Assembly: GCA_030754595.1 (NCBI GenBank)
Contig: JASLZZ010000013.1
Coordinates: forward strand, 1 to 63,048
Direction of reading: 5' to 3'
DNA length: 63,048 nt
Source: Nitrospinota bacterium
Lineage (GTDB): Bacteria > UBA8248
Below, in pieces: positions 35,218-51,079 of this stretch. The notes under the pieces were generated by a model. It worked only from the letters and a program-made list of their open reading frames with translations, had not been told where the DNA came from and did no database searches. A program made the translations under genes and the position numbers. Each line of letters begins with the position of its first letter. Positions within the stretch are counted from its first letter, which is position 1.

Positions 35218-35520
35218 GTGGCTCCACTGGAACATTATTTGATCGTCAGCGCCCTGCTCTTCGCGATTGGGGTGGTGGGCGTCGTTGTGCGGCGCAACGC
35301 CATCGTCGTCGTCATGTCGATCGAAATCATGCTGAACGCCGGGAACCTCGCTTTCGTCACGTTCGGCAGATTTCTGGATTCGATGGACGGCCAGCTTATT
35401 GTGTTTTTCGTGATGGGCGTGGCGGCGGCCGAGGCGGCTATCGGGCTCGCCATCCTCATATTGATATACAGAAACCGTGAGTCCACCGACGTGGACAACC
35501 TGAACCTATTGAAGCTTTGA
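35218..35520 (+). CDS. nuoK: NADH-quinone oxidoreductase subunit K (set 1)
   Basis: [17 protein letters not shown]. Confidence 0.96.
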
Positions 35521-37433
35521 TGATGAAAACGATCCTTTTCATATTATTGCTCCCCGTGGCCGGGGTATTGGTGAACTTGATCTTCGGCTGGCGGCGGGGA
35601 GAAAAGTTCGCGGGTCAGGTCGCGGCCGGCGTCATGGCGTTGGCCTTCGCGGCCTCGGTCGCCGGATTTGTCCAGCTTCTCGGGCTGCCGGAGGACCAAA
35701 GGCTGATTCGCGCCGATCTGTTCGAGTGGATAGCCGTCGGGACCTTCCGAGTCAGCGCCGGTTTCATGCTCGATCCGCTTTCCTCGGTGATGACGCTGAT
35801 CATCACCGGGGTCGGCGCCCTCATTCACATTTACTCGATTGGGTACATGCACGGCGACCGGGGCGCGGTGCGCTACTTTATTTATCTCAACCTGTTTGTT
35901 TTCTTCATGCTCACCCTGGTTCTCGGCTCGAATTTTCTCGTCCTCTTCGTCGGTTGGGAGGGCGTGGGCCTGTGCAGCTACCTCCTGATCGGATTCTGGT
36001 TCGAGCGGCCCGCCGCGTCCGAGGCGGGCAAGAAGGCATTTGTCGTCAACCGGATCGGCGATTTCTGTTTTCTGATCGCGATGTTCATTCTCATCGGCAT
36101 TTTCGGAACCCTCGACTTCGGGGAAATCCTCCAGGCCGCACCGGTCAAGCTGGCGGCGGGCGGCGGAACCGTCACCTTGGTTTGCCTCCTTCTCTTCGGC
36201 GGGGCGACCGGCAAGAGCGCGCAGATTCCGCTCTTCGTCTGGCTTCCCGACGCGATGGAGGGCCCCACGCCCGTCAGCGCGCTGATCCATGCGGCGACGA
36301 TGGTGACGGCGGGCGTCTACATGATGGCGCGGACCTATTTTCTCTTCGATCTCTCCCCCGCGGCGATGAACGTCGTCGCGGTGATCGGGGCGGCCACGCT
36401 TCTCGTGGCGGCAACCATCGCCATGGTGCAGACCGACATCAAGCGTGTGCTCGCTTACAGCACAGTGAGCCAGCTCGGCTACATGGTGATGGCCTGCGGG
36501 GTGGGCGCCTACTCGGCGGCGATTTTCCATCTCATGACGCATTCCTTCTTTAAGGCACTTCTGTTCATGGGGGCGGGCAGCGTCATTCATGCGCTCGACG
36601 GCGAGCAGGACATGAACCGCATGGGTGGCCTGAGTGCGGCGCTCCCCTCGACTAGCATGACCTGCGCCGTCGCCGCTTTCGCCATCGCGGGCGTGTTTCC
36701 GCTGGCGGGTTTCTTTAGCAAGGACGCCATCCTGTTCGCGGCGATGACCTCGGACCACGGCGGGATCGGGTTCTGGCTGGCCGGCGCGGCGGGCGCCCTG
36801 ATGACCGCCTTTTATATTTTCCGGCTGCTCTTCAAGACCTTCTACGGCCGCTGCAACCTCTCGATAGAGGAGCAGAATCACCTGCACGAGTCGCCCGACG
36901 TCATGACAAGGCCGCTCAAGGCGCTCGCGGTGCTCTCCTTCGCCGGCGGCTGGGTGGGGATCCCCATCATCGCGGGGGCGAACGTGTTCGACGGCTTCCT
37001 CTCGCCGGTGTTCGGCGGCGGCGGCGAGGCGCACCACGAGATCATTTTCGAGCTGGCGATGATGGCGGTTTCGCTTGCCATCGCTGTTTTGGGAATTTAT
37101 ATGGCCTATAACCTTTTCGTTCTCAGCTCGCGAGGGGCCTACGCCTATGCCGAGCGCTGGCCGGGGCTCTACCGGCTGGTTTTAAACAAGTACTACATCG
37201 ACGAGCTTTACGATTTTCTGATCGTCCAGCCCATCCGGCGGCTCTCCGTCCGGCTCTGGAAGGATTTCGACGACGGCCTGGTGGACGCATCGGTGAACGG
37301 CGCGGGCGGTTTTGTGCGCCTGATCGGCTCGGCGGCCCGGCAGCTTCAGACGGGCTATGTAAAAAGCTACGCGGTGATGATGCTGGCGGGCGCACTGGTG
37401 CTGGCGCTCTACCTCACCGCAGGGGCGAAATAA
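35520..37433 (+). CDS. nuoL: NADH-quinone oxidoreductase subunit L (set 1), standard-length lateral helix
   Basis: GKSAQIP, DAMEGPTPVSALIHAATMV, NKYYIDE, single D..VD..VNG segment. Confidence 0.97.
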   Translation: MMKTILFILLLPVAGVLVNLIFGWRRGEKFAGQVAAGVMALAFAASVAGFVQLLGLPEDQRLIRADLFEWIAVGTFRVSAGFMLDPLSSVMTLIITGVGALIHIYSIGYMHGDRGAVRYFIYLNLFVFFMLTLVLGSNFLVLFVGWEGVGLCSYLLIGFWFERPAASEAGKKAFVVNRIGDFCFLIAMFILIGIFGTLDFGEILQAAPVKLAAGGGTVTLVCLLLFGGATGKSAQIPLFVWLPDAMEGPTPVSALIHAATMVTAGVYMMARTYFLFDLSPAAMNVVAVIGAATLLVAATIAMVQTDIKRVLAYSTVSQLGYMVMACGVGAYSAAIFHLMTHSFFKALLFMGAGSVIHALDGEQDMNRMGGLSAALPSTSMTCAVAAFAIAGVFPLAGFFSKDAILFAAMTSDHGGIGFWLAGAAGALMTAFYIFRLLFKTFYGRCNLSIEEQNHLHESPDVMTRPLKALAVLSFAGGWVGIPIIAGANVFDGFLSPVFGGGGEAHHEIIFELAMMAVSLAIAVLGIYMAYNLFVLSSRGAYAYAERWPGLYRLVLNKYYIDELYDFLIVQPIRRLSVRLWKDFDDGLVDASVNGAGGFVRLIGSAARQLQTGYVKSYAVMMLAGALVLALYLTAGAK

Positions 37434-37445
37434 AGGAATGGGAAT

Positions 37446-39008
37446 TTGAGTGAACTGCCGTTGACTACCCTGATGATTTTCCTTCCGCTGGCGGGGGGGC
37501 TCCTCCTTCTCTTCGTGGGGGACGCCGACGAAGCGGGCCGGGGGCGGGTGCGAGCGATTTCGATGGCGTTCGCTCTGGCCGCCCTTGCGGTCTCGGCGGC
37601 GGTTTACGCCGGGTTCCGCGAAAATTTCGCCGGGATGCAGTTTATCGAGCGGGCGGAGTGGATACCCCGGTTCGGAATTTCCTATTACGTGGGTCTCGAC
37701 GGCATCAGCCTGCCCCTCATTCTACTGACGACGTTTCTCACCCCGATCGTCTTGCTTTATTCGTGGGATGAAGTGGAAAAGCGGGTGCGGCTTTATCACA
37801 TGGCTCTTCTTTTCCTCGAGACAGCGATGCTCGGCGTTTTCGTCTCGCTCGATTTTTTCCTCTTCTATGTCTTCTGGGAGGGGATGCTCATTCCGATGTA
37901 TCTGATCATCGGGGTGTGGGGCGGCCCCCGGCGCATTTATGCGGCGGTTAAATTTTTCCTCTACACGATGGTCGGCAGCGTGCTCATGCTGGTGGCGATC
38001 CTCTGGCTTTATTTCGAGACGGGCGCGGAGACCTTCGACATCCTGGTCCATCTGGACAAGCCGGTTCATTACGCTTTGCAGGGCTGGCTCTTCGCGGCCT
38101 TCGCCCTATCGTTCGCGATCAAGGTTCCGATTTTTCCGTTTCACACATGGCTGCCCGACGCCCATGTCGAGGCGCCCACGGCCGGCAGTGTAATCCTCGC
38201 CGGGGTGCTTCTGAAGATGGGGACCTACGGGCTCATGCGGTTGGCGATGCCGCTATTTCCGACGGCGGCGCGCGATTTCGCCCTCTTGTTCATGACCCTT
38301 GCAGTCATCGGGATCATTTACGGCGCGCTGGTGGCGATGGTTCAGGACGACATCAAAAAACTCGTCGCTTACTCCTCGGTGAGCCATCTGGGTTTTGTCG
38401 TCCTGGGGCTCTTCTCCTTCAACCTGCTCGGCGCATCGGGCGGGGTACTTCAGATGGTGAACCACGGTGTGAGCACCGGGGCGCTCTTCCTGATCGTGGG
38501 AATGATATACAGCCGCAGGCATACGAGGCTGATCGCCGACTTCGGCGGCATCGCGCGGGTGATGCCGGCCTTCGCGGTCTTTTTCGTGATCACATCGCTC
38601 AGCAGCATCGGCCTTCCCGGTCTGAACGGGTTCGTCGGTGAGTTTACGATTCTGGCCGGCGCCTTCAGCCGGAGTCCTTTCTTCGCCGTCGTGGCGGCGT
38701 CGGGGGTGGTGCTCGCGGCGATCTACATGCTGTGGATGCTCCAGCGCGTTCTCTTCGGCGGGGACCCGTCGCCGGCCAATCTCGGTCTCCGCGATTTGGG
38801 GGTGCGCGAGTGGTGCGTGCTGGTGCCCCTAGTTGCGTTGATGTTCGGTATGGGCCTTTATCCCAAGCCCATACTGAGCAAGATCGAGCCCTCCGCGAAG
38901 GCATGGGTCGAACAGGTGAACCGGCGGGTGCTCCATGTGCAAACGCCCCCGGAGGCGCCCGCGCCCAGGCTGGCGAGGACGCGCTCCCAAAAGACGGTGA
39001 GGCCATGA
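37446..39008 (+). CDS. nuoM: NADH-quinone oxidoreductase subunit M (set 1)
   Basis: FWE, HTWLPDAHVEAPT, LLKMG, GLPGLNGFVGE. Confidence 0.97.
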   Translation: MSELPLTTLMIFLPLAGGLLLLFVGDADEAGRGRVRAISMAFALAALAVSAAVYAGFRENFAGMQFIERAEWIPRFGISYYVGLDGISLPLILLTTFLTPIVLLYSWDEVEKRVRLYHMALLFLETAMLGVFVSLDFFLFYVFWEGMLIPMYLIIGVWGGPRRIYAAVKFFLYTMVGSVLMLVAILWLYFETGAETFDILVHLDKPVHYALQGWLFAAFALSFAIKVPIFPFHTWLPDAHVEAPTAGSVILAGVLLKMGTYGLMRLAMPLFPTAARDFALLFMTLAVIGIIYGALVAMVQDDIKKLVAYSSVSHLGFVVLGLFSFNLLGASGGVLQMVNHGVSTGALFLIVGMIYSRRHTRLIADFGGIARVMPAFAVFFVITSLSSIGLPGLNGFVGEFTILAGAFSRSPFFAVVAASGVVLAAIYMLWMLQRVLFGGDPSPANLGLRDLGVREWCVLVPLVALMFGMGLYPKPILSKIEPSAKAWVEQVNRRVLHVQTPPEAPAPRLARTRSQKTVRP

Positions 39009-40492
39009 CTCCGACTTTTCCTGTGATTCATTGGCCGTATTTGCTTCCGGTGATTTTTGTGGTGTCCGGGGCGGTGGCCGTTCTTCTCTGGGATACTTTT
39101 TCCCGCTCCCGAGATCGGACCTTTCTCGCCGCCCTGACTCTGGCCACTCTCGCGGCCGCGGGGAGCGCCACCCTCTCGGCTTTGCCCGGCCTGCCCGGCG
39201 GCGCCGTCTCCTTCGGTGGCATGTACATCTTCGACCGATTCACGGGGTTTGTATTTATCCTGGTCCTGATCGCGAGTTTTATTTCCGTTCTGATCGCCTC
39301 CGCTCAGATGAGCCTCGACGAGACCCCGGCGGGCGAATATTTCGCCCTTATCCTCTTCGCCACCTCGGGGATGATGCTCATGGCGGGGACGCGGAATCTG
39401 CTGATGATTTTCATCGGCCTCGAGATTCTCTCGCTTTCCTTATATATATTGGCCGGCTATCTCAGGTTCGATCTGAGGGGGAACGAGGCGGCGCTGAAAT
39501 ATTTTCTGCTGGGATCTTTCGCCGCGGGCTTTTTGCTGTTCGGAATGGCCATGATTTACGGCGCTGCCGGCTCGGTGGACCTGTCCCGGATTACCACCCA
39601 CCTCAACGCCCACCCCCTTTCGCGGAACCCGGCCTTCATGCTGGGGCTGGGTTTCATCATCGTCGGCTTGGGTTTCAAGGTGGCGGCGGTGCCCTTCAAC
39701 ATGTGGACCCCCGACGTCTACGAGGGAGCGCCCACGGCGGTGACAGCCTTTATGTCGGTGGGGCCCAAAGCGGCCGCTTTCGCGGCATTTTTCAGGGTAG
39801 TGCTCATGGTGGCGGGCTATGCCGGGGAGAATTTCACCACCGTCCTCTGGGTGATGGCGGCGCTCACGATGACGGCGGGCAATCTGGTGGCCATCTGGCA
39901 GACGAACATAAAAAGAATGCTCGCCTTCTCCAGTATCGCTCATGCCGGATACATTCTGGTGGCCCTGGTGGCGGCCCAGAAGGGCGCAGCCCTGGCCACT
40001 GGGGGATTTCTCTACTACTTGCTTGTTTACTCGTTTATGAACCTGGGTGCGTTCTGCGTGGTGGTGGCCTCTGGCTGGGGCGGGGGGGAGAGAACCGGGA
40101 TAGCGGATTACGCCGGGATGGGCTATACCCGGCCGGTTCTGGCCGCGGCGATGGCGATATTCATGGTGTCTCTGGCGGGGCTGCCTCCGACCGGGGGGTT
40201 TGTCGCCAAATTATATATCTTCAGCGCGGCCATCAAGGCGGGCTATGTCTGGCTGGTGGTGGTGGCCGTCCTGAACAGCGTTGTCGCGGTTTACTACTAC
40301 CTCCGTCTGATCGTGGTGATGTACATGCAAGAGCCCGCGGACGGGGAAAATCAGGCTGCGGCGGGTTCGGCGCGCGTAAGCTCCTATGCGTTCGCCGCGC
40401 TGCTTCTGGCGGTGATCGGCACGCTTGAACTGGGTATATTCCCCGGCGCGGTGATGGAATTCGCCCTCCGTTCGGGTGTCCTTTTGAACTAG
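39005..40492 (+). CDS. nuoN: NADH-quinone oxidoreductase subunit N (set 1)
   Basis: EAALKYF, FK...VPF.MW.PDVYEGAP, GLPPTGGF.AK; ATG 39005. Confidence 0.97.
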   Translation: MTPTFPVIHWPYLLPVIFVVSGAVAVLLWDTFSRSRDRTFLAALTLATLAAAGSATLSALPGLPGGAVSFGGMYIFDRFTGFVFILVLIASFISVLIASAQMSLDETPAGEYFALILFATSGMMLMAGTRNLLMIFIGLEILSLSLYILAGYLRFDLRGNEAALKYFLLGSFAAGFLLFGMAMIYGAAGSVDLSRITTHLNAHPLSRNPAFMLGLGFIIVGLGFKVAAVPFNMWTPDVYEGAPTAVTAFMSVGPKAAAFAAFFRVVLMVAGYAGENFTTVLWVMAALTMTAGNLVAIWQTNIKRMLAFSSIAHAGYILVALVAAQKGAALATGGFLYYLLVYSFMNLGAFCVVVASGWGGGERTGIADYAGMGYTRPVLAAAMAIFMVSLAGLPPTGGFVAKLYIFSAAIKAGYVWLVVVAVLNSVVAVYYYLRLIVVMYMQEPADGENQAAAGSARVSSYAFAALLLAVIGTLELGIFPGAVMEFALRSGVLLN

Positions 40493-40672: not shown

Positions 40673-41080
40673 GTGAGGATCGGTTTGCAGGAATTCATAT
40701 CTGCGTTTTTTGGCGATTACAACGTGATCAACGGCTATGTGCCACTGTTCATTTTTCTGCTGGTGGCTTTGGGGTTTGCCGGGGGCACGCTGCTCGTCGC
40801 CCTGATCATCCGCCCGAACAAGCCCGACCCCGAAAAGCTCGCGCCCTACGAGTGCGGAATGCCCCCGCTCATGGAGGCGCACGAACGTTTTTCCATTCGT
40901 TTTTATCTTCTCGGAATTCTGTTTCTCCTCTTCGACGTGGAGGCGATGTTCCTCTTCCCATGGGCGGTGAAGTACGACGCCCTCGGCCTCTTCGGTTTCA
41001 TCGAGATGATGTTGTTTATCGCGATTCTGCTCGTCGGCTATTTTTATGCCTGGCGGAAGGGAGCGCTGGAATGGGCTTAA
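40673..41080 (+). CDS. nuoA: NADH-quinone oxidoreductase subunit A (set 2); start uncertain
   Basis: PYECG, FDVE, RKGALEW. Confidence 0.96.
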
Positions 41081-41562
41081 TCGACGGAAAGCTGGGCGAC
41101 AACTTTATCACCACTAGATTCGACAGCCTAGTGGCCTGGGCCCGTAAAAGCTCGCTTTGGCCGATGACTTTCGGGCTGGCTTGTTGCGCCATCGAGATGA
41201 TGGCCTCGGGCGCCGCGCGGTACGACTTCGACCGCTTCGGGGTCATTTTCCGGGCGACGCCCCGGCAGTCCGACGTTATCATCATCGCCGGGACCGTCAC
41301 CCATAAAATGGCCGATGCGATCGTTCGGGTTTATAACCAGATGCCCGAGCCCAGGTGGGTCATTTCGATGGGGAATTGTTCGACCTGCGGCGGACCGTAT
41401 GCGAACTATGCCGTTGTTCAAGGGGTGGACGAGATCATCCCCGTCGATGTGTATGTGCCGGGATGCCCCCCCCGCCCGGAAGCCCTGATGTGGGGCGTCA
41501 TGCAGCTACAGAAAAAGATCGAGCAGGAAAGGTTCGTCCGCAAGAGTAAATCGGCGGCGTAG
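41071..41562 (+). CDS. nuoB: NADH-quinone oxidoreductase subunit B (set 2)
   Basis: [25 protein letters not shown]. Confidence 0.97.
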
Positions 41563-41572
41563 ACTCCCAAAA

Positions 41573-42151
41573 ATGGCAGACGAAGTCGGAACCGAGGAAG
41601 CGAACGGGGAAACTCCTGAAGAGGTTGAAGCGCCGAAAACTCCTCCGGGGAAGGCGCTCAGGGAATTGGTCGATGGGGAGTTTCCAGGAGCGATCCTCGA
41701 GCAAACGGCATACGAAGACCGCGAGGACGAGGTGACGTTTGTCCTCAAGGACGACGCCCTGGTGGGGGTGGCGACCTATCTGCGCGATCATCCGGCCACG
41801 AGCTTCAAGATACTGACGGATCTGACCGCCGCGCACTATCCCGGCGAGGAAACGCCGTTCCATGTCGTCTATCAGCTGGTCAGCGTCGATCACGGCCGCT
41901 TGCTTCGCCTGAAGGTGAAGGCCAGGGAGGACCAAGAGGTCCCCACCGTGTCGGGGGTTTGGTCAAGCGCGAACTGGATGGAGCGGGAGGTCTACGATTT
42001 GTTCGGCGTCCGCTTCAAGGACCACCCGGATCTTAGGCGTATTTTTCTTCCCGACGATTGGGGAAGTTATCCTTTCAGGAAGGACTATCCTCTCGAGGGC
42101 CGGGGGGAGCGCGTATACTCGAAACCCACGCGCAAGGAAATCGGCGACTAG
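41573..42151 (+). CDS. nuoC: NADH-quinone oxidoreductase subunit C (set 2)
   Basis: WMEREVYDLFG, HPDLRRI, PFRKDYP. Confidence 0.96.
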   Translation: MADEVGTEEANGETPEEVEAPKTPPGKALRELVDGEFPGAILEQTAYEDREDEVTFVLKDDALVGVATYLRDHPATSFKILTDLTAAHYPGEETPFHVVYQLVSVDHGRLLRLKVKAREDQEVPTVSGVWSSANWMEREVYDLFGVRFKDHPDLRRIFLPDDWGSYPFRKDYPLEGRGERVYSKPTRKEIGD

Positions 42152-42207
42152 GGCCTTCGCCGCCCGGCGGCGTGGCTTTTATTTGAGTTGAATCGGGAGA
42201 TACCCTG

Positions 42208-43350
42208 ATGCTCGGAGCGGAAATCTCGTCCCGGATTGAGCGGTCCAGCACCGTCCCCGGCACCGAGGAACTCGTCATCAACATGGGGCCCCAGCACCCC
42301 AGCACGCACGGGGTGCTCCGGATTATCCTCAAGCTCGACGGCGAGACGGTCAAGGACGTCGATTGCGATATCGGCTACCTCCACCGGGGCACCGAGAAGA
42401 TCGGAGAGAACATCACATACACGATGTTCATCCCCTATACGGATCGGCTCGATTACATCGCCGCCCCCTCGTGCAATCTGGCCTGGGTCCAGGCGGTCGA
42501 ATCGTTCTTCGACTGGGAGATTCCGGACCGCGCTCTTTTCATCCGCTCCATCGTGGCCGAGCTTTCGCGGATCGCGAGCCATCTTCTCTGGCTGGCCACC
42601 CACGCGCTCGACATCGGCGCGATGACGGTTTTTCTGTGGTGTTTCCGGGAGCGGGAGATGGTTCTCGATTTGTTCGAGAGGGCCTTCGGAGCGCGGCTCA
42701 CCGTGAACGCCTTCCGCCTCGGCGGGCTTTATCAGGACGTTCCTCAGGAATTTCTCGACGACGCCCGGAAGTTCATCGAACTTTTCCCGGACCGGGTGGA
42801 CGACTACGAGACGCTGCTGACCGAGAACCGCATCTGGCTCCAGCGCACGCGAGGGGTCGGCGTCATTTCGGCCGCGGACGCCCTCGACTACGGGCTGACG
42901 GGGCCGATCCTCCGCGCATCGGGGGTGAAGTGGGACCTCCGCCGGGCGAAGCCCTACGCCGCCTATCCGTATGTGAATTTCACGATACCCGTCGGTGAGA
43001 ACGGCGACGTCTACGATCGTTATCTGGTGCGGCTCGTCGAGATGCGCGAGAGCGCGAGCATCATCGGGCAGTGCCTCGATATGCTCCCGGGGGGGCCGGT
43101 GAGCTGCAAGACCCCTCGGACGATTAAGCCTCCGGCGGGCGAAATTTATCACGGCACCGAAAATCCGAAGGGGGAATTCGGATTTTACATCGTGAGCGAC
43201 GGGACGGAGACGCCCTACCGGGTCCGTATCCGACCGCCCTCGTTCATCAACCTCGCGGGCCTGAAAAAGCTGTGCGTGGGCGAGCTTTTAGCGGACGTTA
43301 TCGCGATCATCGGCAGCATCGATATCGTCTTGGGCGAGTGTGACCGCTAG
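42208..43350 (+). CDS. nuoD: NADH-quinone oxidoreductase subunit D (set 2)
   Basis: NMGPQHPSTHGVLR, DRLDY, ENPKGE, GECDR; no NiFe CxxC motifs. Confidence 0.97.
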   Translation: MLGAEISSRIERSSTVPGTEELVINMGPQHPSTHGVLRIILKLDGETVKDVDCDIGYLHRGTEKIGENITYTMFIPYTDRLDYIAAPSCNLAWVQAVESFFDWEIPDRALFIRSIVAELSRIASHLLWLATHALDIGAMTVFLWCFREREMVLDLFERAFGARLTVNAFRLGGLYQDVPQEFLDDARKFIELFPDRVDDYETLLTENRIWLQRTRGVGVISAADALDYGLTGPILRASGVKWDLRRAKPYAAYPYVNFTIPVGENGDVYDRYLVRLVEMRESASIIGQCLDMLPGGPVSCKTPRTIKPPAGEIYHGTENPKGEFGFYIVSDGTETPYRVRIRPPSFINLAGLKKLCVGELLADVIAIIGSIDIVLGECDR

Positions 43351-43379
43351 CGCGCGCCGAAAAGGATTCTTGACCGGAA

Positions 43380-44345
43380 ATGATTGCTGAACTAATCGCC
43401 GCTTTTTTGAAAATCGTTCTCGTGCTCGGGACCATCTCTCTCGTGGTGGCTTACCTAACCTATCTCGAGCGCAAGATCATCGGGCATATCCAGATGCGCA
43501 TGGGGCCGATGCGGGTCGGCTGGCACGGGCTGCTCCAGCCCATCGCCGATGGGCTCAAGCTCTTCCTCAAAGAAGACATCATCCCCTCGAAGGCGGACAA
43601 GATCGTATTCGTCATCGCGCCGATCATGGTGCTGGTGCCCGCGTTCGTGGTCTATTCCGTGCTGCCGTTCGATGAGAATTTCTATATCACCCAGGTTAAC
43701 GTGGGCCTCTTTCTCGTCCTGGCGGTGAGCTCGCTGGGCGTTTTCGGCATCGTCATGGCGGGCTGGGCCTCCAACAGCAAATACAGCCTCCTGGGGGCAT
43801 TTCGCAGCGCCGCTCAGATGCTGAGCTACGAGATTTTCCTGGGCTTCTCTCTCATCGGGCCGCTCATGCTGGCCGGCTCGCTCAACTTCCAGAACATCGT
43901 TAAAGCCCAGTCGGACGTTTGGTTTGTCTTCTATCAGCCTCTCGCGTTCATCGTGTTTTTCATCGCGGCGCTCGCCGAGACGAACCGAATTCCTTTTGAC
44001 CTGCCCGAGGCCGAGACGGAGCTGGTGGCCGGGTTCCACACCGAGTACAGCGGGATGAAGTTCGCTTTCTTCTTCTTGGCCGAGTATGCCAACATCATGG
44101 CGGTCTCCACCGTCTGCATCGCCGTTTTCTTCGGAGGCTGGGGCGGGATCGATGCGATACCTCTGCCGGGCATCGTCTGGTACCTGTTAAAGATGGCGGT
44201 CCTGATTTTCGTGTTTATCTGGATACGGGCGACGCTGCCCCGCTACCGCTACGACCAGTTGATGCGGGTGGGGTGGAAGTTCATGTTCCCGCTCGCGATT
44301 TTGAATATATTTGTCACTGGATTGGTGAAGTTCCTGTTTCTCTAA
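43380..44345 (+). CDS. nuoH: NADH-quinone oxidoreductase subunit H (set 2)
   Basis: [27 protein letters not shown]; follows nuoD directly. Confidence 0.97.
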
Positions 44346-44363
44346 CGGCGAGAGGCATCGGTT

Positions 44364-44879
44364 TTGGAACTGCTTTTCTTTTATTTATTCGCGGCCGGAA
44401 TCATCGGGGCCTCGCTCCTGGTGGTGACCCGCTCGAACGTCATTCACGCGGCTCTGCTGCTGGTGCTCACGTTCTTTTTCATGTCTGGGGTGTTTGTCCT
44501 GGCCGGGGCCGAGTTCCTGGCGGTGGTGCAGGTCCTGCTCTACGCCGGCGGAATCATGGTGCTCTACCTTTTCTCGATCATGTTGATGAACGCTGAGGTC
44601 TCCGTGCGGCTCAGGCAGTTTCACCGCCAGAGCTTTTTCACGATCGTCGTCTCGCTGATTCTGGCGGCGGAGATTTGGTGGAAGGTTCTGGGCGGGGGGG
44701 CCGCATATCCGGCCTTCAAGGGTTTTTCGTGGACGCTGGGGACGACGCCCGGAAACGTCGAGGCGCTCGGATCGATTCTTTACACGAAGTACCTGTTTCC
44801 GTTCGAGGTGGCTTCGATTTTACTGCTGGCGGCCATGATCGGCGCTATCGTTCTCGCCAAACGGACGATAGACCGCTAG
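44364..44879 (+). CDS. nuoJ: NADH-quinone oxidoreductase subunit J (set 2)
   Basis: [21 protein letters not shown]; 18 nt after nuoH, no nuoI between. Confidence 0.96.
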
Positions 44880-44901
44880 GGCCCCGGGAGGAGACAACGG
44901 G

Positions 44902-45204
44902 ATGGTTCCTCTTTCTCATTATCTGGCGCTGGGCGCGGTCGTGTTCGTGATCGGGGCCGCGGGCGTCCTGATGCGGCGGAACGCCATCATCATCCTGATG
45001 AGCATCGAATTGATGTTGAACGCCGTGAACATCACTCTCGTCGGCTTCTCGCGCCAGTGGGGGGACCTGACGGGCCAGGTGCTCGCCATCTTCGTCATCA
45101 CGGTTGCGGCGGCGGAGGCGGCCGTGGGCCTGGCCATCCTGATCTCCTTGAACCGAGACCGGTCGGTCCTCAACGTGGACGAAGTGAACCTTTTGAAGTG
45201 GTAG
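44902..45204 (+). CDS. nuoK: NADH-quinone oxidoreductase subunit K (set 2)
   Basis: [17 protein letters not shown]. Confidence 0.96.
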
Positions 45205-45211
45205 GGAACGA

Positions 45212-47242
45212 ATGATCAAACTCGCGTGGCTCATACCGTTGTTCCCGGCGCTCGGCGTCGTCATCAACGGCTTCTTCGGCTCCCGCTACACCCGGGACAA
45301 GGCGGGGCACATCGCCGCCCTGATGGCGGGTCTCTCGTTCCTGGTCGTCCTCGGAATCGCCTTCGAGATGATCTTCGGAAGCGGCGGCAAGCACACGATC
45401 CACCTCTGGGACTGGATCTCGGCGGGCAAGTTCTCGGTTTCCGTCGCCTTTTTGATCGATCCGCTAAGCACCATCATGCTCCTCGTCGTGTCGGGCGTGG
45501 GTTTCCTCGTCCATGTCTATTCTGTCGGCTACCTCCACGGCGACCCGGGTTATCCTCGGTTTTTCACCTACCTGAACCTGTTCATGCTCTCGATGTTCCT
45601 CCTCGTCCTCGGGGACAACTACCTGCTCATGTTCGTCGGGTGGGAGGGCGTCGGACTCTGCAGCTACCTCCTGGTCGGTTTCTGGTACGAAAAGCAGTCG
45701 GCCTCGGACGCCGGGAAAAAGGCCTTTATCGTCAACCGGATCGGCGACGCCGGCTTTTTGCTCGGCATGTTCATGATCTGGGTTCTAACCGGCAGCCTGA
45801 CCTATTCGGAAGTATTTCATGCGGCCTCGAACATCACGGAAGCCGGGGCCACGGCCATCGGCCTTTTGCTCTTCATCGGGGCCGCCGGCAAGAGCGCGCA
45901 GATTCCGCTCTACGTATGGCTTCCCGACGCGATGGAAGGCCCCACGCCCGTCAGCGCGCTGATCCACGCGGCGACGATGGTGACGGCCGGAGTTTACATG
46001 GTCGCGCGGACGAGCCCGATTTATGTGATGGGCCCCGGCGCCCTCGAGGTCATCGCCCTCGTCGGCGCGGTCACGGCGATTTTCGCTGCCTCGATCGGGC
46101 TGGTTCAAAACGACATCAAGCGCGTCCTGGCCTACAGCACGGTGAGCCAGCTCGGGTTCATGTTCATGGCGCTAGGGGTGGGCGCGTTCGGGGCCGGTAT
46201 TTTCCACCTGATGACCCATGCCTTCTTTAAAGGTCTCCTGTTTCTGGGGAGCGGGAGCGTCATCCACGCCCTCCACCACGCCCCGGTGGATCAGCAACAG
46301 GACATGCGCTACATGGGCGGATTGAGATCGAAGATGCCCATTACCTACTGGACGTTTGTGATCGGCGCGGTGGCGATCGCCGGAGTTCCGCCCTTGGCGG
46401 GCTTTTGGAGCAAGGACGAGATTTTAGCCAACGCCTTCTTCACCGGACACCACTTTGTCTGGGTCCTGGGCTCTGTGGCGGCGTTCATGACGGCGTTTTA
46501 TATGTTCCGCCTGATATTCATGACCTTCCACGGCGAGATGCGGGTGGACCACCACGCCAGAGAGTATATTCACGAGTCCCCCTATTCGATGACGGTGCCA
46601 CTGATGATCCTGGCGGTCTTGAGCGTTGTCGGGGGGATTATTCCGGGCTTCCCGCCGGAGGGCGGCTGGATTCACACCTTCCTCGCTCCTTCGCTGGCCA
46701 AGGTCGGCGCCGGGGGGCATGCGGCGAATGAGGCGGTCCAGTTTGTCCGTGTGTCGGCCGGGAGCGGCGGCGGCCACGGCGGCCCGGCGGCGGTGATTCT
46801 CATCATCCTGGCGATTGCCATCGCCGTGGGCGGAATCGCCCTGGCCTGGTTCATGTACATGAAGAATACGGCGGTGCCGGACGGCCTGGCCTCCCGCTTC
46901 CCGGGCATTCACAGGCTCTTGCTCAACAAGTACTACATCGATGAGATTTATCAGGCCTGTATCGTCAAGCCGATTTACCGCCTGATGAACAGTCTTTGGT
47001 CTTTCGACGCGAATGTCGTGGACGGCGCGGTGAACGGAAGCAGCCTCATCACGCTCGTGTCGAGCCGCTTTTCGGGAATATTCGATCTAAAGACGGTGGA
47101 CGGCGCTGTAAACGGCGTCGCCTCCGTGACGAAGTTTTTTTCTCAGGTTTTCAAGTTCATACAATCGGGCATGGTGCAAAATTATCTTTTCGTGATGCTT
47201 CTCGGTGTTTTCATGATGCTGAGCGCATACTTGTTCCGGTAG
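45212..47242 (+). CDS. nuoL: NADH-quinone oxidoreductase subunit L (set 2) with 26-aa lateral-helix duplication
   Basis: Canonical NuoL motifs plus FD...VDGAVNG repeated at 26-residue spacing. Confidence 0.97.
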   Translation: MIKLAWLIPLFPALGVVINGFFGSRYTRDKAGHIAALMAGLSFLVVLGIAFEMIFGSGGKHTIHLWDWISAGKFSVSVAFLIDPLSTIMLLVVSGVGFLVHVYSVGYLHGDPGYPRFFTYLNLFMLSMFLLVLGDNYLLMFVGWEGVGLCSYLLVGFWYEKQSASDAGKKAFIVNRIGDAGFLLGMFMIWVLTGSLTYSEVFHAASNITEAGATAIGLLLFIGAAGKSAQIPLYVWLPDAMEGPTPVSALIHAATMVTAGVYMVARTSPIYVMGPGALEVIALVGAVTAIFAASIGLVQNDIKRVLAYSTVSQLGFMFMALGVGAFGAGIFHLMTHAFFKGLLFLGSGSVIHALHHAPVDQQQDMRYMGGLRSKMPITYWTFVIGAVAIAGVPPLAGFWSKDEILANAFFTGHHFVWVLGSVAAFMTAFYMFRLIFMTFHGEMRVDHHAREYIHESPYSMTVPLMILAVLSVVGGIIPGFPPEGGWIHTFLAPSLAKVGAGGHAANEAVQFVRVSAGSGGGHGGPAAVILIILAIAIAVGGIALAWFMYMKNTAVPDGLASRFPGIHRLLLNKYYIDEIYQACIVKPIYRLMNSLWSFDANVVDGAVNGSSLITLVSSRFSGIFDLKTVDGAVNGVASVTKFFSQVFKFIQSGMVQNYLFVMLLGVFMMLSAYLFR

Positions 47243-47267
47243 GCGTCTCTGGGACCAGGAGAGTCAG

Positions 47268-48836
47268 ATGGAGAATTATCTGCTTACACTGATCACCTTC
47301 ATTCCCCTGGCGGGGGCGGTGATCGTCATGCTCTTTTTCGAAAAGGGGCAGACGAAAGCCATCAAGGGATTCGCCACGGCGGTGACGATCGTGGACTTCC
47401 TTCTTTCGATTCCGCTCTGGACCCAATTCGACACATCCGAGGCGGGCTTTCAGTTCGTCCAGAAGGTGAGTTGGATCCCGACCATCGGGGTGAGCTATTT
47501 CGTGGGGGTGGACGGAATCAGCGTCCTGCTCGTCCTGCTCACGACGATCACCATGATCGTCTCCACGGTTTGCTCGTTCTCGGCCATCGTCGATCGGGAG
47601 AAGGAATACTACGTCTGCCTCCTGTTGATGTCGACCGGAATGCTCGGAACCTTCATGGCCGTCGATATATTCCTGTTCTACGTTTTCTTCGAGATCACGC
47701 TGGTCCCGATGTACTTCCTGATCGGAATCTGGGGCGGGTCGAGAAAGCTCTACGCGGCGATCAAGTTCTTCCTCTACACCCTGTTCGGCAGCGTGCTCAT
47801 GTTGCTGGGGATCCTGGCGCTCTATTTCGTGAACCTCAAGCTCGGAACCGGAACCCTTACTTTCGATCTGACCGAGCTCTATGCGGTCGGCCCGAAAATC
47901 CCGATCGGCCTTCAGAGCTGGATCTTCCTGGCCTTCTTCGTCGGATTCGCCATCAAGGTGCCGATGTTCCCGTTCCACACCTGGCTCCCCGACGCCCATG
48001 TCGAGGCGCCGACGGCGGGAAGCGTCATCCTGGCGGGAATTCTCCTGAAGATGGGGACCTACGGCTTTGTCCGCTTCGTGCTTCCGCTGCTTCCCCAGGC
48101 CAGCCAGTTGTTCGTGCCCTTCATGGTCCTGTTGTCGATTATCGGGATCATCTACGGCGCCCTGGTGGCCATGGCCCAGACCGACGTGAAAAAGCTGGTG
48201 GCCTATTCTTCGGTGAGCCATCTGGGGTTTGTCATGCTGGGCGTCTTCGCCCTTAACCAGCAGGGTGTCCTCGGCGGCCAGCTTCAGATGATCAACCACG
48301 GCATCAGCACGGGGGCGCTCTTCCTCCTGGTGGGAATCATCTATGAGCGCCGCCACACGCGCCAGATATCGGATTTCGGCGGTCTCTCGACCCAGGTGCC
48401 AATTTACTCGACGATCTTCGCCGTCACGATGCTGAGCAGCATCGGCCTGCCCGGGTTGAACGGGTTTGTGGGCGAGTTCCTGATCCTCGTCGGCGCCTTC
48501 AAGGCGAGCTATGTGTATGCCGCCTTCGCCGTAATCGGAATCGTACTCGGCGCGGCCTATATGCTCTGGCTGTTCCAGAGAATGTTCTTTGGAACCCTCG
48601 ACAACCCGGAGAACCAGAAGCTGACGGACTGCAACACCCGGGAGATTCTATATCTGCTTCCCATGGTGGTGTTGATGTTCTGGATCGGTCTCTATCCCCG
48701 GCCCTTCCTCGCCCGGATGGAGGCCAGCGTCGGCAAGGTAGTGAAAATGGTCAACGTGGCCGCGGCGCCCCATGACAACAAGGCCGCGGCGCTTCCGGTG
48801 GAGTTGCGCTCCCGGTTGAAGGCGAAAACTTATTAG
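47268..48836 (+). CDS. nuoM: NADH-quinone oxidoreductase subunit M (set 2)
   Basis: FFE, HTWLPDAHVEAPT, LLKMG, GLPGLNGFVGE. Confidence 0.97.
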   Translation: MENYLLTLITFIPLAGAVIVMLFFEKGQTKAIKGFATAVTIVDFLLSIPLWTQFDTSEAGFQFVQKVSWIPTIGVSYFVGVDGISVLLVLLTTITMIVSTVCSFSAIVDREKEYYVCLLLMSTGMLGTFMAVDIFLFYVFFEITLVPMYFLIGIWGGSRKLYAAIKFFLYTLFGSVLMLLGILALYFVNLKLGTGTLTFDLTELYAVGPKIPIGLQSWIFLAFFVGFAIKVPMFPFHTWLPDAHVEAPTAGSVILAGILLKMGTYGFVRFVLPLLPQASQLFVPFMVLLSIIGIIYGALVAMAQTDVKKLVAYSSVSHLGFVMLGVFALNQQGVLGGQLQMINHGISTGALFLLVGIIYERRHTRQISDFGGLSTQVPIYSTIFAVTMLSSIGLPGLNGFVGEFLILVGAFKASYVYAAFAVIGIVLGAAYMLWLFQRMFFGTLDNPENQKLTDCNTREILYLLPMVVLMFWIGLYPRPFLARMEASVGKVVKMVNVAAAPHDNKAAALPVELRSRLKAKTY

Positions 48837-48877
48837 GGCCCGGCCTTGAATTCGCTCTATGAATAGGATCTGATCCG

Positions 48878-50380
48878 ATGCCGCTTGTGATTCCCGACAT
48901 ATCGCTTTCCACCGCCGCTCCCGAGGTGGGGCTTGCGATCTTGATCTGCGTCGTGGTGGTCGCCGACTTGTTCACCTCTATGGAAAACAAGGCGGGGATG
49001 GGAATCCTGAGCCTGTTGGGGGTGGCGATTCTGGGGCTCATCGTGTTGTCCCAGTGGGGCGGGGGAGTCCGGACCACGTTCAGCGGGTTCTACATCGCGG
49101 ATAATTTTAGCTCCTTCGTTAAGATGGTCGTCGTTGTAACAACGGCGTTCACGATTCTCCTCTCTCTCCAATACACCAAAATGGAGAAGATCAACTACGG
49201 CGAGTTTTACGTGATGATCCTCTTCGCCGTGTTCGGAATGCTGGTGATGGCCTCGGGCAACGATCTCATCTCGATTTATCTCGGCCTCGAGACGATGAGC
49301 ATCAGCAGTTACGTGCTGGTGAGTTTCATTCGCCATGATCCGCTGAGCCGGGAGGCCGGCCTCAAATATTTCCTGATGGGTGCGTTCGCCTCGGGAATAT
49401 TGCTCTACGGCATCGCGCTGACCTACGGACTTACCGGGACAACCTCGCTGACGGGAATCGCCAAGGCCCTATCGGGTCCGCAGGGAGCGGCGATCGTCGC
49501 CGATCCGGTGATGGTCTTCTCGCTGATATTGTTCGTGGCCGGTTTCGGGTTCAAGCTGGCGCTCGTTCCTTTTCATATGTGGCTACCCGACGCCTATACG
49601 GGGGCGCCGACCTCCATCACGGCGTTTATGTCGGTGGCGGTGAAGATGGCCACCTTGGCCGCGGTCATTCGCGTGTTTTTTATCGCGTTCCCGGCGCTCG
49701 CCGGAAAATGGAACCTCCTGCTCTGGCTCCTGACGGTGTTCACGATGGTTTGGGGCAACGTCGCAGCAATCGCCCAGACCAACCTCAAGCGGATGCTCGC
49801 CTACTCGAGCATCGCCCATGCGGGCTATATCATGTTGGGGATCGTGGCCACCACGAAGATCGCCGGCGGGAAGGCGGTGTTCACGCCGAATGGAATCAGC
49901 GCGGTACTTTTCTATCTGGTGGCCTATATGGTCACGAACCTCGGCGCTTTCGGGATGCTCATCTATCTGTGCCGGGAGGATTTCCGGGGAGACAACATCG
50001 AGGACTGGCGGGGAGTCGGCCATGACCATCCCTGGGCCGGCATGGCCTTTGTCGTCTTTTTCCTCTCGCTGGGCGGTTTTCCCCCGACCGCCGGGTTTGT
50101 CGGCAAACTTTTTCTCTTCGGCACCGCGATCCAGAACGAGTATTACTGGCTGGCGGTGATCGGAATCCTAACGAGCGCCGTCTCCATCTACTATTATTTC
50201 CGCGTGGTGATGGTGATGTATATGGAGCCCCGCGGCGAAAGCCAGCCGGCGATTGAATTCTCAAAAGCTCCTTCCATTTTTGTCGCGCTGTTGGTCCTGG
50301 TGCTGGCGACCATTTACCTGGGTCTGTTCCCCGGGAGTATCATCGCGGCCGCCAAGAGTTCCGTGGCCGGGCTCCTCTAG
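48878..50380 (+). CDS. nuoN: NADH-quinone oxidoreductase subunit N (set 2)
   Basis: EAGLKYF, FK...VPFHMW.PD.Y.GAP, GFPPTAGFVGK. Confidence 0.97.
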   Translation: MPLVIPDISLSTAAPEVGLAILICVVVVADLFTSMENKAGMGILSLLGVAILGLIVLSQWGGGVRTTFSGFYIADNFSSFVKMVVVVTTAFTILLSLQYTKMEKINYGEFYVMILFAVFGMLVMASGNDLISIYLGLETMSISSYVLVSFIRHDPLSREAGLKYFLMGAFASGILLYGIALTYGLTGTTSLTGIAKALSGPQGAAIVADPVMVFSLILFVAGFGFKLALVPFHMWLPDAYTGAPTSITAFMSVAVKMATLAAVIRVFFIAFPALAGKWNLLLWLLTVFTMVWGNVAAIAQTNLKRMLAYSSIAHAGYIMLGIVATTKIAGGKAVFTPNGISAVLFYLVAYMVTNLGAFGMLIYLCREDFRGDNIEDWRGVGHDHPWAGMAFVVFFLSLGGFPPTAGFVGKLFLFGTAIQNEYYWLAVIGILTSAVSIYYYFRVVMVMYMEPRGESQPAIEFSKAPSIFVALLVLVLATIYLGLFPGSIIAAAKSSVAGLL

Positions 50381-50758
50381 CCAGGGCGGGGATTTCTTCC
50401 CCCCTCCCTTTCTCCGGAAACCCTTCTGACCGTCAGTTTTCCCCCAAATGCGCCATTATTCCGGGCTCAATCCGCCATCAGTCGCAATTCGGAACCCCGG
50501 AAAGGCTGTATGGTTCGGGATGGATGATTTTGCATCATTCGATATGCTTTCTGAGACGTTTTTGCACGCCCCGGCCCAGATGATTTTGTCATAATGTCAG
50601 GGGTAGGTTTTTTTTTCGATTTTTCGTTGATATATCGTCAGTACTCAGTCGCATCTCCAAAATTTTTAGAATTGCCGGACTAGGCCGGTAGTTATATAAG
50701 CCATTGTTTTTACTTTTGATACAATTCATGACTGAATTGGCTAATCAGTTTAACATTT

Positions 50759-50774
50759 TGGCATGTGATGTGCA
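50759..50774 (+). promoter_or_regulatory. Sigma54 (-24/-12) promoter with upstream IHF-like site (50697-50709)
   Basis: TGGCATGTGATGTGCA with GG-N10-GC spacing; TAAGCCATTGTTT is one mismatch from the IHF consensus. Confidence 0.65.
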
Positions 50775-50784
50775 GTACTAGAAT

Positions 50785-51039
50785 AGGTGTTACTTCATAT
50801 CTCCTGATGACGATAAGTGGACTGGAAGGAAATTTCTGGCTTCTCAGGAGAGTTTAGAAGGAGACGCTAAAAAAACCCACTAAAACTCCTGATGATGAGG
50901 AGTCATTCTCCCCGGTGGCCGGACGAAGGGTTCCCCTAGGCCGGTGCACTGAACCCCCACCTAATAAATCTTTCCGGCGAAAGCCGGATGGGTTTCCTGC
51001 CGAATGAGGGGCACGTCTTAAAAGACGTGCCCCCTTTTC
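50785..51039 (+). ncRNA. Candidate sigma54-dependent small RNA (about 255 nt)
   Basis: No ORF over 19 codons seen between promoter and terminator; stems TCTCCTGA/TCAGGAGA, ACTCCT/AGGAGT, TCCGGC-GAAA-GCCGGA. Confidence 0.55.
51008..51039 (+). terminator. Intrinsic terminator
   Basis: GGGGCACGTCTT-AA-AAGACGTGCCCC then CTTTTCGTTT; T-tract only on the plus strand. Confidence 0.85.
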
Positions 51040-51079
51040 GTTTGTGGAGAGGAAACAAGCCGCTTCAGGGCGGCGTCAT

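What the first reader, a model, noticed from the sequence alone, without database searches (positions are those of the whole stretch)
47003..47158. NuoL of the second operon has the 26-aa helix extension of two-NuoM complexes, but the operon has only one nuoM
Seen: NuoL2 reads FDANVVDGAVNGSSLITLVSSRFSGI-FDLKTVDGAVNG, a repeat at exactly 26 residues (F codons at 47003 and 47081). NuoL1 has the segment once. Known: the lateral amphipathic helix of NuoL spans NuoM to reach NuoN, and complexes with an extra NuoM carry an insertion of about 26 aa there, proposed to allow extra proton translocation or reverse electron flow. Inference: this arm is built for L-M-M-N, so the second M slot is filled either by a second NuoM2 copy or by NuoM1 from the neighbouring operon. 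That would be a 'cryptic 2M' complex I missed by counting nuoM genes per operon.
Basis: partly seen in the sequence, partly recalled or inferred. Interest (0 to 1): 0.88.

Follow-up and report, generated by a model that had tools for sequence, protein, structure and literature searches.

The report
Lengthened NuoL arm, one nuoM gene
The second complex I operon of this nitrite-oxidiser relative has a NuoL arm lengthened by one exact 26-residue repeat but only one nuoM gene, a combination that is typical of a large group of such enzymes and leaves open whether they carry a hidden extra proton pump.

Summary
NuoL2 (45212-47242) has an exact 26-residue tandem duplication in its lateral helix (47003-47080, 47081-47158), and NuoL1 has the unit once. 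The unit aligns with the E. coli helix kink whose residues lie closest to NuoM.

The organism is a Nitrospinota MAG. Operon 2 is nuoABCDHJKLMN, without nuoE/F/G or nuoI; a nuoI lies unlinked on another contig. All 14 Nitrospinota orthologous loci carry the duplication and one nuoM. Five complete relatives have no orphan nuoM. Two relatives have only this operon type, so NuoM1 cannot be the general filler.

The combination is not special to this genome. I found 91 lengthened NuoL tails in Nitrospinota, Acidobacteriota and metagenomes. None is followed by two nuoM genes. None of the 68 metagenome loci nor the 8 Acidobacteriota loci annotated has nuoE/F/G in the sequence held. Their NuoM proteins form one clade. 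Bryobacterales alone carry an unlinked paralogue of that NuoM.

A similar insertion in single-nuoM complexes is already in print for Ca. Manganitrophaceae (Yu et al. 2022).

No tool here could decide whether two NuoM2 copies fill the arm or the helix is simply re-registered. I rate this a new member of a known kind, of moderate interest.

The parts
45212..47242 (+). nuoL2 (676 aa), the distal antiporter-like subunit of operon 2
   Evidence: Pfam PF00361, PF00662. NCBIfam NF005141 NuoL, 752 bits against a cut-off of 556. The AF2 model matches solved NuoL chains.
46874..47161 (+). Lateral helix HL of NuoL2 (residues about 555-650)
   Evidence: The AF2 model has helices 555-562, 564-571, 573-620 and 629-650. 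The region aligns with the E. coli NuoL helix (A3).
47003..47080 (+). Repeat unit 1 (residues 598-623, FDANVVDGAVNGSSLITLVSSRFSGI)
47081..47158 (+). Repeat unit 2 (residues 624-649, FDLKTVDGAVNGVASVTKFFSQVFKF). Its V629/D630 align with E. coli L565/N566.
47174..47236 (+). TM16, the C-terminal anchor helix of NuoL2 (residues 655-675)
   Evidence: AF2 helix 655-675. Conserved QxG..Q.Y...G tail.
47268..48836 (+). nuoM2 (522 aa), the only nuoM of operon 2, with AGGAG upstream of the ATG
   Evidence: Pfam. NCBIfam TIGR01972, 636 bits. Sequence read. Falls in the clade of M from lengthened-arm operons.
48878..50380 (+). nuoN2 (500 aa), the last gene of operon 2
   Evidence: Pfam. NCBIfam TIGR01770, 443 bits.
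40673..45204 (+). nuoA2 (40673-41080), nuoB2 (about 41083-41562), nuoC2 (41573-42151), nuoD2 (42208-43350), nuoH2 (43380-44345), nuoJ2 (44364-44879), nuoK2 (44902-45204). There is no nuoE/F/G and no nuoI.
   Evidence: Pfam. tblastn of operon-1 subunits against the genome. NCBIfam NuoB and NuoD.
35517..40492 (+). nuoL1 (35517-37433, single unit), nuoM1 (37446-39008) and nuoN1 (about 39017-40492) of the neighbouring 14-subunit operon 1

Best explanation
NuoL2 is the distal subunit of a second complex-I-type enzyme of a Nitrospinota bacterium. This enzyme lacks NuoEFG; it is encoded by nuoABCDHJKLMN plus an unlinked nuoI.

Its lateral helix carries an old, exact tandem duplication of the 26-residue unit that contacts NuoM in canonical enzymes. 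The lengthened arm is a family trait of a large clade of EFG-less complexes that nearly always encode a single nuoM.

Most likely (inferred, not shown) the helix works as a ruler that spans one more antiporter-like module. As an alpha-helix, 26 residues make about 39 A. In Nitrospinota that module would be a second copy of the NuoM2 polypeptide (L2-M2-M2-N2), not NuoM1. This would give five pumping sites.

The enzyme would then use proton-motive force to push electrons from quinol to a low-potential acceptor such as ferredoxin for the reductive TCA cycle. Lucker et al. 2013 proposed this in print for the FMN-less NUO-2 of N. gracilis. Passages of PMC6606698 cite the same proposal for 2M complexes.
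For: - Exact 26-residue duplication: 11 of 26 residues identical, the best self-match in the protein. It is an insertion of 26 columns against 46 single-unit NuoL.
- Both units align to one stretch of solved NuoL and NdhF sequences.
- The unit's V-D core aligns with E. coli L565/N566, which PMC3274701 describes as closest to NuoM. The same paper places P552 between L and M (passages).
- Purifying selection: among 12 Nitrospinota orthologues the majority fraction is 0.888 (unit 1) and 0.917 (unit 2), against 0.894 for the whole protein, with no indels.
- Of 91 lengthened tails, 72 keep DGx[VILMF]N in both units, spaced 26 (66 tails) or 27 (6 tails) residues apart. This is expected if both units meet the same kind of surface.
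- M proteins of lengthened-arm operons form one clade (SH-aLRT 99, 37 rows), apart from canonical M including M1.
- In Bryobacterales, whose arm has the same length, an unlinked nuoM is sister (SH-aLRT 99) to the operon's own M. Unit 2 of that lineage has changed N to R (6 of 6 tails).
- No spare nuoM elsewhere:
  - Five complete relatives have exactly 8 PF00361 genes each: two L-M-N sets plus MrpA and MrpD.
  - 28 of 36 genomes of the family also have 8.
  - The mrp genes form a full mrpABCDEFG operon.
- G015 and G016 have only this operon type: 3 PF00361 hits, no NuoF, and in G015 an extended tail.
Against: - No structure, stoichiometry or proteomic datum was available.
- I know of no precedent (recalled) for one gene product filling two non-equivalent places in the antiporter chain of complex I.
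- 0 of 91 lengthened-arm operons has two adjacent nuoM. Ten genomes checked have no second M of this type: 5 Nitrospinota and 5 Pyrinomonadaceae; L052's genome has none either. So a long arm is not tied to two nuoM genes.
- The AF2 monomer model breaks the helix at residues 621-628, between the units, and has pLDDT 46-61 beyond residue 600.
- The NuoL tree needs 4 changes of arm length. A single origin is not rejected, but only marginally so (AU p = 0.087).
- The Bryobacterales orphan M could be an alternative isoform rather than a second protomer.
- I could not obtain reference sequences of Nitrospira 2M operons. Homology of the two extensions therefore rests on text passages only.
Confidence: 0.42

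Rival explanations
1. There is only one NuoM per complex. The extra 26-residue unit re-registers the clamp: the repeated contact motif sits once on NuoM2 and once on the homologous site of NuoN2. TM16 then docks one module further towards the quinone end, at the proximal edge of NuoN or at NuoK/J. This gives a longer brace but no extra pump.
For: - Single nuoM is the rule in this clade: 0 of 91 operons have two.
- Most genomes checked have no other M of this type.
- M and N are homologous, so a duplicated M-contact unit could fit N (inference).
- The other subunits are of ordinary size, so nothing else is obviously added.
Against: - Canonical NuoL needs no such motif over NuoN: NuoL1 and 45 others have a single unit.
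- Bryobacterales have two M paralogues of this type but the same arm length, 105-residue tails. If both sit in the complex, one extra unit equals one extra M.
- Published 2M complexes are described with an insertion of this same length.
Confidence: 0.3
2. The extra span is filled by a membrane protein that is not an antiporter-like subunit and is encoded elsewhere, as nuoI is.
For: Subunit genes of this enzyme can be unlinked. The nuoI on contig C94 is conserved in 5 of 5 relatives tested, including those with only this operon type.
Against: - No candidate gene was seen within or just after the operon in the window or in 14 related loci. Downstream of nuoN2 lies about 630 nt with no ORF longer than 49 codons, conserved only in the same-species relative.
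- The repeat copies an M-contact unit, not a new sequence.
Confidence: 0.1
3. NuoM1 from the neighbouring operon 1 fills the second M place (L2-M1-M2-N2).
For: - The two operons are adjacent in 12 of 12 related loci with upstream flank, and in G014.
- Operon 2 already depends on genes outside itself, such as nuoI.
Against: - G015 and G016 have the lengthened-arm operon as their only complex I, with one nuoM in the genome.
- M1 belongs to the canonical M clade. The only documented second M (Bryobacterales) is a paralogue of the lengthened-arm type.
- The unlinked nuoI, not NuoI1, is the copy kept in genomes without operon 1.
Confidence: 0.05
4. The extension is a relic of a former two-nuoM ancestor, or a neutral loop without function.
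For: Yu et al. [quoted passage not shown]
Against: - The inserted unit is as conserved as the whole protein and has no indels in 12 orthologues.
- Exact spacing and the motif are kept in 72 of 91 tails across phyla.
- The first unit is modelled as helix continuous with HL (low confidence).
Confidence: 0.05

Closest known systems
Nitrospira-type '2M' complex I (Chadwick et al. 2018, clade 3; e.g. CI_1 of N. moscoviensis)
   Same: NuoL lengthened by about 26 residues in the lateral helix. No NuoE/F genes. Found in a nitrite oxidiser that uses the rTCA cycle. Proposed role in reverse electron flow to ferredoxin (passages of PMC9040806 and PMC6606698).
   Different: The defining second nuoM in the cluster is absent here and in all 91 lengthened-arm operons examined. 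I could not obtain 2M sequences, so common descent of the extension is untested. Chadwick et al. 2018 is not held, and I did not read it.
Complex_I_1 and Complex_I_2 of Ca. Manganitrophaceae (Yu et al. 2022, mBio, PMC9040806)
   Same: A 26-residue insertion in the NuoL helix of complexes that do not have an extra nuoM. The authors note the same puzzle (passage read).
   Different: Different phylum (Nitrospirota). I did not see their Fig. S2 or their sequences. Their gene content (EFG, nuoI) was not compared here.
NUO-2 of Nitrospina gracilis (Lucker et al. 2013, PMC3578206)
   Same: A second complex I of a Nitrospinota nitrite oxidiser, proposed to reduce ferredoxin by reverse electron transport (passages).
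   Different: NUO-2 is described as nuoACHIJKLMN plus nuoEGD, with separate nuoB2 and nuoF2. The operon here is nuoABCDHJKLMN with no E/F/G and an unlinked nuoI. The paper's passages say nothing about the NuoL helix.
Canonical NuoL of E. coli and P. denitrificans (3RKO, 7P61, 8QBY)
   Same: Same fold: Foldseek E about 1e-44, TM about 0.8, 41% identity to 8qby_L. Same order of TM15, lateral helix and TM16. Same KYYxDE and VDGxVNG landmarks.
   Different: One contact unit instead of two. The tail from KYYxDE to the end is 78-82 residues against 104 here.
Bryobacterales lengthened-arm complex with an unlinked nuoM (found here: L024/G006, L047/G007)
   Same: Same clade of M, same arm length, no EFG in the sequence held, one nuoM in the operon.
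   Different: It has a second, unlinked paralogue of the operon's M (53% and 52% identical to NuoM2). Unit 2 reads DGx[VI]R instead of DGxVN. Nitrospinota have no such paralogue.

Membership tests
2M complex I (two-NuoM complex I, Chadwick et al. 2018, as described in citing papers) | Insertion of about 26 residues in the lateral helix of NuoL | tested here: met
   Insertion of exactly 26 columns relative to 46 single-unit NuoL. Tail of 104 residues against 78-82.
2M complex I (two-NuoM complex I, Chadwick et al. 2018, as described in citing papers) | A second nuoM gene in the gene cluster | tested here: not met
   One PF00361 gene between nuoL2 and nuoN2. The same holds in 14 of 14 related loci. 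No orphan nuoM in five complete relatives.
2M complex I (two-NuoM complex I, Chadwick et al. 2018, as described in citing papers) | Four antiporter-like protomers in the assembled enzyme | not testable with these tools
No solved 2M structure was found.
2M complex I (two-NuoM complex I, Chadwick et al. 2018, as described in citing papers) | Phylogenetic placement of L and M with a recognised 2M clade | not tested
   No Nitrospira 2M operon could be reached. None is among the 80 genome loci, the 80 metagenome loci or the 120 listed proteins.
Single-nuoM complex I with lengthened NuoL helix (noted for Ca. Manganitrophaceae, Yu et al. 2022) | 26-residue helix insertion together with one nuoM in the cluster | tested here: met
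   The published description was read as a passage only.
NuoEFG-less (11-subunit type) complex-I-like enzyme | Genes for A, B, C, D, H, I, J, K, L, M, N and none for E, F, G | tested here: met
   Operon 2 has A, B, C, D, H, J, K, L, M, N. The only E, F, G in the genome belong to operon 1. nuoI is unlinked (C94; TIGR01971, 121.3 bits against a cut-off of 113.05). Relatives G015 and G016 have no NuoF at all (95% completeness).
NuoL, NADH-quinone oxidoreductase subunit L | Curated family models above their cut-offs, and the fold | tested here: met
   NF005141, 752 bits against 556. TIGR01974, 751 bits against 407.5. Foldseek to 8qby_L, E = 1.3e-44.

The most novel reading that the evidence does not exclude
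The lateral helix of NuoL is a molecular ruler. A single 26-residue duplication was enough to turn a three-pump enzyme into a four-antiporter enzyme (five sites in all) in which one nuoM gene supplies two adjacent protomers.

A whole, widespread clade of EFG-less complex-I-type enzymes (Nitrospinota, Acidobacteriota, and by name also Tectomicrobia, Methylomirabilota and others) would then be 'cryptic 2M' enzymes with a higher H+/e- ratio. The known two-gene 2M operons, and the unlinked Bryobacterales paralogue, would be later subfunctionalisations of that state.
Probability: 0.4. Interest if true: 0.8.

Novelty: new member of a known kind. Interest (0 to 1): 0.55.

Why it matters
The number of pumping modules sets the H+/2e- ratio. 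That ratio determines whether a nitrite oxidiser can drive electrons uphill from quinol to ferredoxin for CO2 fixation.

If the arm length rather than the nuoM gene count reports the number of modules, gene-count surveys miss most enzymes with an extra pump. Energy budgets for Nitrospinota and many soil Acidobacteriota would then need revision.

If single-nuoM enzymes really have one M, a long NuoL arm can no longer be used as evidence for an extra pump in 2M complexes.

Either answer is within reach. The operon is conserved, and cultured Nitrospina-type strains exist (recalled).

Tried and rejected
- Complex prediction of two copies of NuoM2 (residues 1-500, alignment A5 of 40 rows): the verdict was 'no answer', score 0.00. 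This is no evidence either way.
- AF2 model of NuoL2 alone: it fits NuoL well. The helix beyond residue 600 has pLDDT 46-61 and a break at 621-628, so it cannot decide between helix and loop.
I dropped it and used an alignment of tails by reference instead.
- Chadwick et al. 2018 is not held.
- I looked for a spare antiporter-like gene:
  - The contig C14 pair is a full mrpABCDEFG operon.
  - Contig C128 is a 2.7-kb J-K-L-M fragment, 67-80% identical to operon 1. It is probably another strain, since the assembly's contamination is 6.43%.
  - The ninth PF00361 hits in three of the six family genomes that have nine (G038, G021, G051) are fragments, contig-end pieces or a second mrp pair. G018 (same order, 12 hits) is a duplicated assembly.
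- I looked for an added gene after nuoN2. There is none; the only Rfam match is weak, 17.7 bits against a gathering score of 45.
- The genome of L061 (G056) is too fragmented to say whether it has an orphan nuoM.
- I first read the gene beside the unlinked nuoI as a ferredoxin-NADP reductase type. It is thioredoxin reductase: TIGR01292, 368 bits against 343.
Full report
**What is in the window.** The window is a whole contig (C13) of a 3.55-Mb assembly in 138 contigs. It holds two complex I gene sets on the + strand.

- Operon 1 is a full 14-subunit set. I located nuoB, C, E, F, G, H, I, J, K, L1, M1 and N1 by Pfam, and nuoA and nuoD by similarity to operon 2.
- About 180 bases after nuoN1, operon 2 begins. 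It reads nuoA2-B2-C2-D2-H2-J2-K2-L2-M2-N2 (40673-50380), with no nuoE, F, G and no nuoI.
- The closest public record is a MAG labelled as an oxygen-deficient-zone nitrite oxidiser (98% identity). Further relatives are titled Nitrospinota.

- The two units are NuoL2 residues 598-623 (47003-47080) and 624-649 (47081-47158).
- They share 11 of 26 residues and 39 of 78 bases.
- Of 30,775 window comparisons within NuoL2, only 6 reach 11 identities. All 6 are this repeat in shifted registers.
- In an alignment of 64 NuoL sequences, the unit is an insertion of exactly 26 columns relative to NuoL1 and 45 other sequences.
- phmmer against PDB sequences aligns each unit separately onto the same single stretch of P. 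denitrificans NuoL and of a cyanobacterial NdhF.

So this is a true tandem duplication inside the lateral helix, and it is old, given only 50% DNA identity between the units.

**Where in the helix.** I aligned E. coli NuoL, fetched by accession, with NuoL2 (A3).

- E. coli P552 falls on P587 of NuoL2.
- E. coli D563-P572 falls on K627-V636, so E. coli L565/N566 pair with V629/D630, the core of the repeated V-D-G motif.
- Passages of Belevich et al. [quoted passage not shown]

The duplicated unit is therefore the M-contacting unit. As an alpha-helix at 1.5 A per residue (textbook value), 26 residues make about 39 A. I recall this as roughly the width of one antiporter-like subunit.

**Is it kept by selection?**

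- All 14 Nitrospinota-type loci from the genome collection carry both units.
- Among the 12 orthologues in the alignment there is no indel. The mean majority fraction is 0.888 in unit 1 and 0.917 in unit 2, against 0.894 for the whole protein and 0.779 for the canonical first part of the helix.

A decaying relic or a free loop is unlikely.

**How many nuoM?**

- Operon 2 has one.
- The assembly has 9 PF00361 genes: L1, M1, N1, L2, M2, N2, two genes of a complete mrpABCDEFG operon on C14, and a nuoL on the 2.7-kb contig C128.
- tblastn shows that C128 holds the end of nuoJ, then nuoK, nuoL and the start of a nuoM, 67-80% identical to operon 1.
- The assembly is rated 6.43% contaminated. Five complete single-chromosome relatives have exactly 8 such genes and no third set. 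I therefore read C128 as a piece of another strain.
- In the family, 28 of 36 genomes of at least 90% completeness have exactly 8 hits. I listed three of the six with nine (G038, G021, G051). Their ninth hits are fragments, contig-end pieces or a second mrp pair.

There is no orphan nuoM in Nitrospinota.

**NuoM1 as filler.**

- The two operons are adjacent in 12 of 12 related loci with enough upstream flank and in a class-level relative, G014.
- Two other class-level relatives, G015 and G016 (95% complete), have only 3 PF00361 genes.
- In G015 these are one nuoABCDHJKLMN operon whose NuoL has the double unit, a 105-residue tail.
- Neither genome has a NuoF.

There the lengthened arm works without any NuoM1. 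That argues against borrowing as the general solution.

**The missing nuoI.**

- The only other NuoI-like gene in the assembly is on contig C94, at 5609-6169.
- It passes the NuoI model (TIGR01971, 121.3 bits against a cut-off of 113.05).
- It lies beside thioredoxin reductase.
- It is found in 5 of 5 relatives tested. In G015 and G016 it is the only NuoI-like match.

I infer that it is the NuoI of the operon-2 enzyme.

**The combination is common.**

- Among the 66 non-Nitrospinota loci, nine from Acidobacteriota have the same double unit: L024, L047, L061, L052, L070, L074, L077, L078, L079.
  - Six read L-M-N.
  - Three end earlier at a contig end.
  - None reads L-M-M.
- The eight of these that I annotated (all but L077) have no nuoE/F/G in the sequence held. 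Four single-unit neighbours in the same call (L014, L041, L059, L069) do have them.
- A metagenome scan with an alignment of tails returned 80 loci.
  - 68 have a lengthened tail (100 residues or more from KYYxDE to the end), 5 are canonical (78-80 residues), and 7 were not parsed by my script.
  - Of the 68, 38 read L-M-N: 37 by script, plus L084 on inspection.
  - 21 read L-M and then the contig ends, 8 end after L, and 1 has a split L.
  - None reads L-M-M, and none has E, F or G in the flank.
- Of all 91 lengthened tails, 72 keep DGx[VILMF]N in both units, 26 (66 tails) or 27 (6 tails) residues apart.
- A protein search with the tail found 1022 proteins at E <= 1e-5. Named ones include Nitrospinota, Tectomicrobia, Vicinamibacterales, Eisenbacteria and Methylomirabilota.

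**Trees.**

- I built a NuoM tree of 64 rows. I picked 53 loci by hand for having a complete M, and added the window's M1, M2, N1 and N2.
  - All 35 M from lengthened-arm operons fall in one clade, together with the two orphans (37 rows, SH-aLRT 99).
  - Canonical M lie outside. These include NuoM1 and the M of the second operons of the same Acidobacteriota.
- A NuoL tree with the insert columns removed needs 4 changes of arm length. The AU test does not reject a single clade (p = 0.087).

The lengthened arm thus marks one lineage of EFG-less enzymes, not an oddity of this genome.

**Bryobacterales.**

- A complete Bryobacteraceae chromosome (G006) and a Bryobacterales MAG (G007) each have a PF00361 gene with no nuo neighbours, besides the lengthened-arm L-M-N and a canonical L-M-N (G006 also has an mrp-like pair).
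- These orphans are NuoM-like, 53% and 52% identical to NuoM2.
- They are sister (SH-aLRT 99) to the M of the lengthened-arm operon of the same lineage.
- The arm there has the same length, but unit 2 reads DGx[VI]R in all 6 tails of that type.
- Five Pyrinomonadaceae genomes and the genome of L052 have no orphan.
- One of these, G057, which holds locus L070, is flagged unpublished. No claim here rests on it alone.

The Bryobacterales case is the best indirect support for 'one extra unit equals one extra M'. It also suggests that the arm was lengthened before nuoM was duplicated. It is a single evolutionary event, however, and the orphan could be an alternative isoform.

**What was not decided.**

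- The AF2 monomer model (pLDDT 83.4) makes unit 1 continuous with the helix (573-620), breaks at 621-628 and resumes at 629-650. Confidence there is 46-61.
- The complex job for two NuoM2 copies gave no verdict.
- No solved 2M structure turned up in the PDB fold search or in the paper searches.

The data therefore leave two main readings. In the first, two NuoM2 protomers sit under a ruler-like helix. In the second, a re-registered clamp covers one M. A third protein, NuoM1 or a relic are minor options.

**Literature.**

- I read passages, not whole texts, of PMC9040806, PMC6606698, PMC7117926, PMC3578206, PMC12342949, PMC7784846, PMC3274701, PMC7419157, PMC10203281 and PMC10052474.
- Yu et al. 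2022 state that the 26-residue insertion also occurs in NuoL of Complex_I_1 and Complex_I_2 of Ca. Manganitrophaceae. [quoted passage not shown]
- Searches for Nitrospina/Nitrospinota together with NuoL, NuoM or '2M complex' found no paper in the held library that describes the lengthened arm in Nitrospinota.
- Chadwick et al. 2018 and its supplements are not held and may list such cases.

**Verdict.** I rate it a new member of a known kind. It is of moderate interest because it makes the question 'does arm length or gene count set the number of pumps?' directly testable.

Noticed in passing
window 43380-44879; genome contig C94:5609-6169 (locus L081): Operon 2 goes straight from nuoH2 to nuoJ2 (18-nt gap) with no nuoI. 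A NuoI gene (TIGR01971 above its cut-off) lies unlinked beside thioredoxin reductase. It is conserved in 5 of 5 Nitrospinota tested, and it is the only NuoI-like gene in the two genomes that lack operon 1.
   Followed up: partly
genome contig C128 (locus L083, 2689 bases): A third nuoJ(end)-K-L-M(start) fragment, 67-80% identical to operon 1, with a single-unit NuoL. Complete relatives have no third set. It is probably another strain binned into the MAG (contamination 6.43%).
   Followed up: partly
G015 (locus L171) and G016: Two small (2.1-Mb) class-level Nitrospinota genomes have the EFG-less operon as their only complex I and no NuoF anywhere. In G015 the NuoL arm was checked and is lengthened. 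They would have no NADH-linked complex I.
   Followed up: partly
L165:6515-8101 (G006) and L166:5781-7343 (G007): Bryobacterales carry an orphan nuoM far from any nuo gene. It is a lineage-specific paralogue of the M of their lengthened-arm operon.
   Followed up: yes
L173:4870-5484 (G038, about 4.5 kb after nuoN2): A complete Nitrospinota relative has a stray fragment matching the C-terminal 205 residues of NuoN2 (70% identity) downstream of operon 2. It may be a partial duplicate or a pseudogene.
   Followed up: no
window 50381-51040: About 630 nt after nuoN2 has no ORF longer than 49 codons. It ends in a strong terminator-like hairpin (11-bp stem, 51008-51033). It is conserved only in the same-species relative, apart from 58 nt shared with L010. 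There is no Rfam match above gathering score.
   Followed up: partly
genome contig C14:2317-8119 (locus L082): A complete mrpABCDEFG cation/proton antiporter operon. It accounts for the two remaining antiporter-like genes of the genome.
   Followed up: yes
L070, L074, L078, L079 (Pyrinomonadaceae NuoL): These lengthened-arm NuoL have open frames of 826-848 residues. They carry large extra insertions near the N-terminus and before TM15, besides the helix duplication.
   Followed up: no
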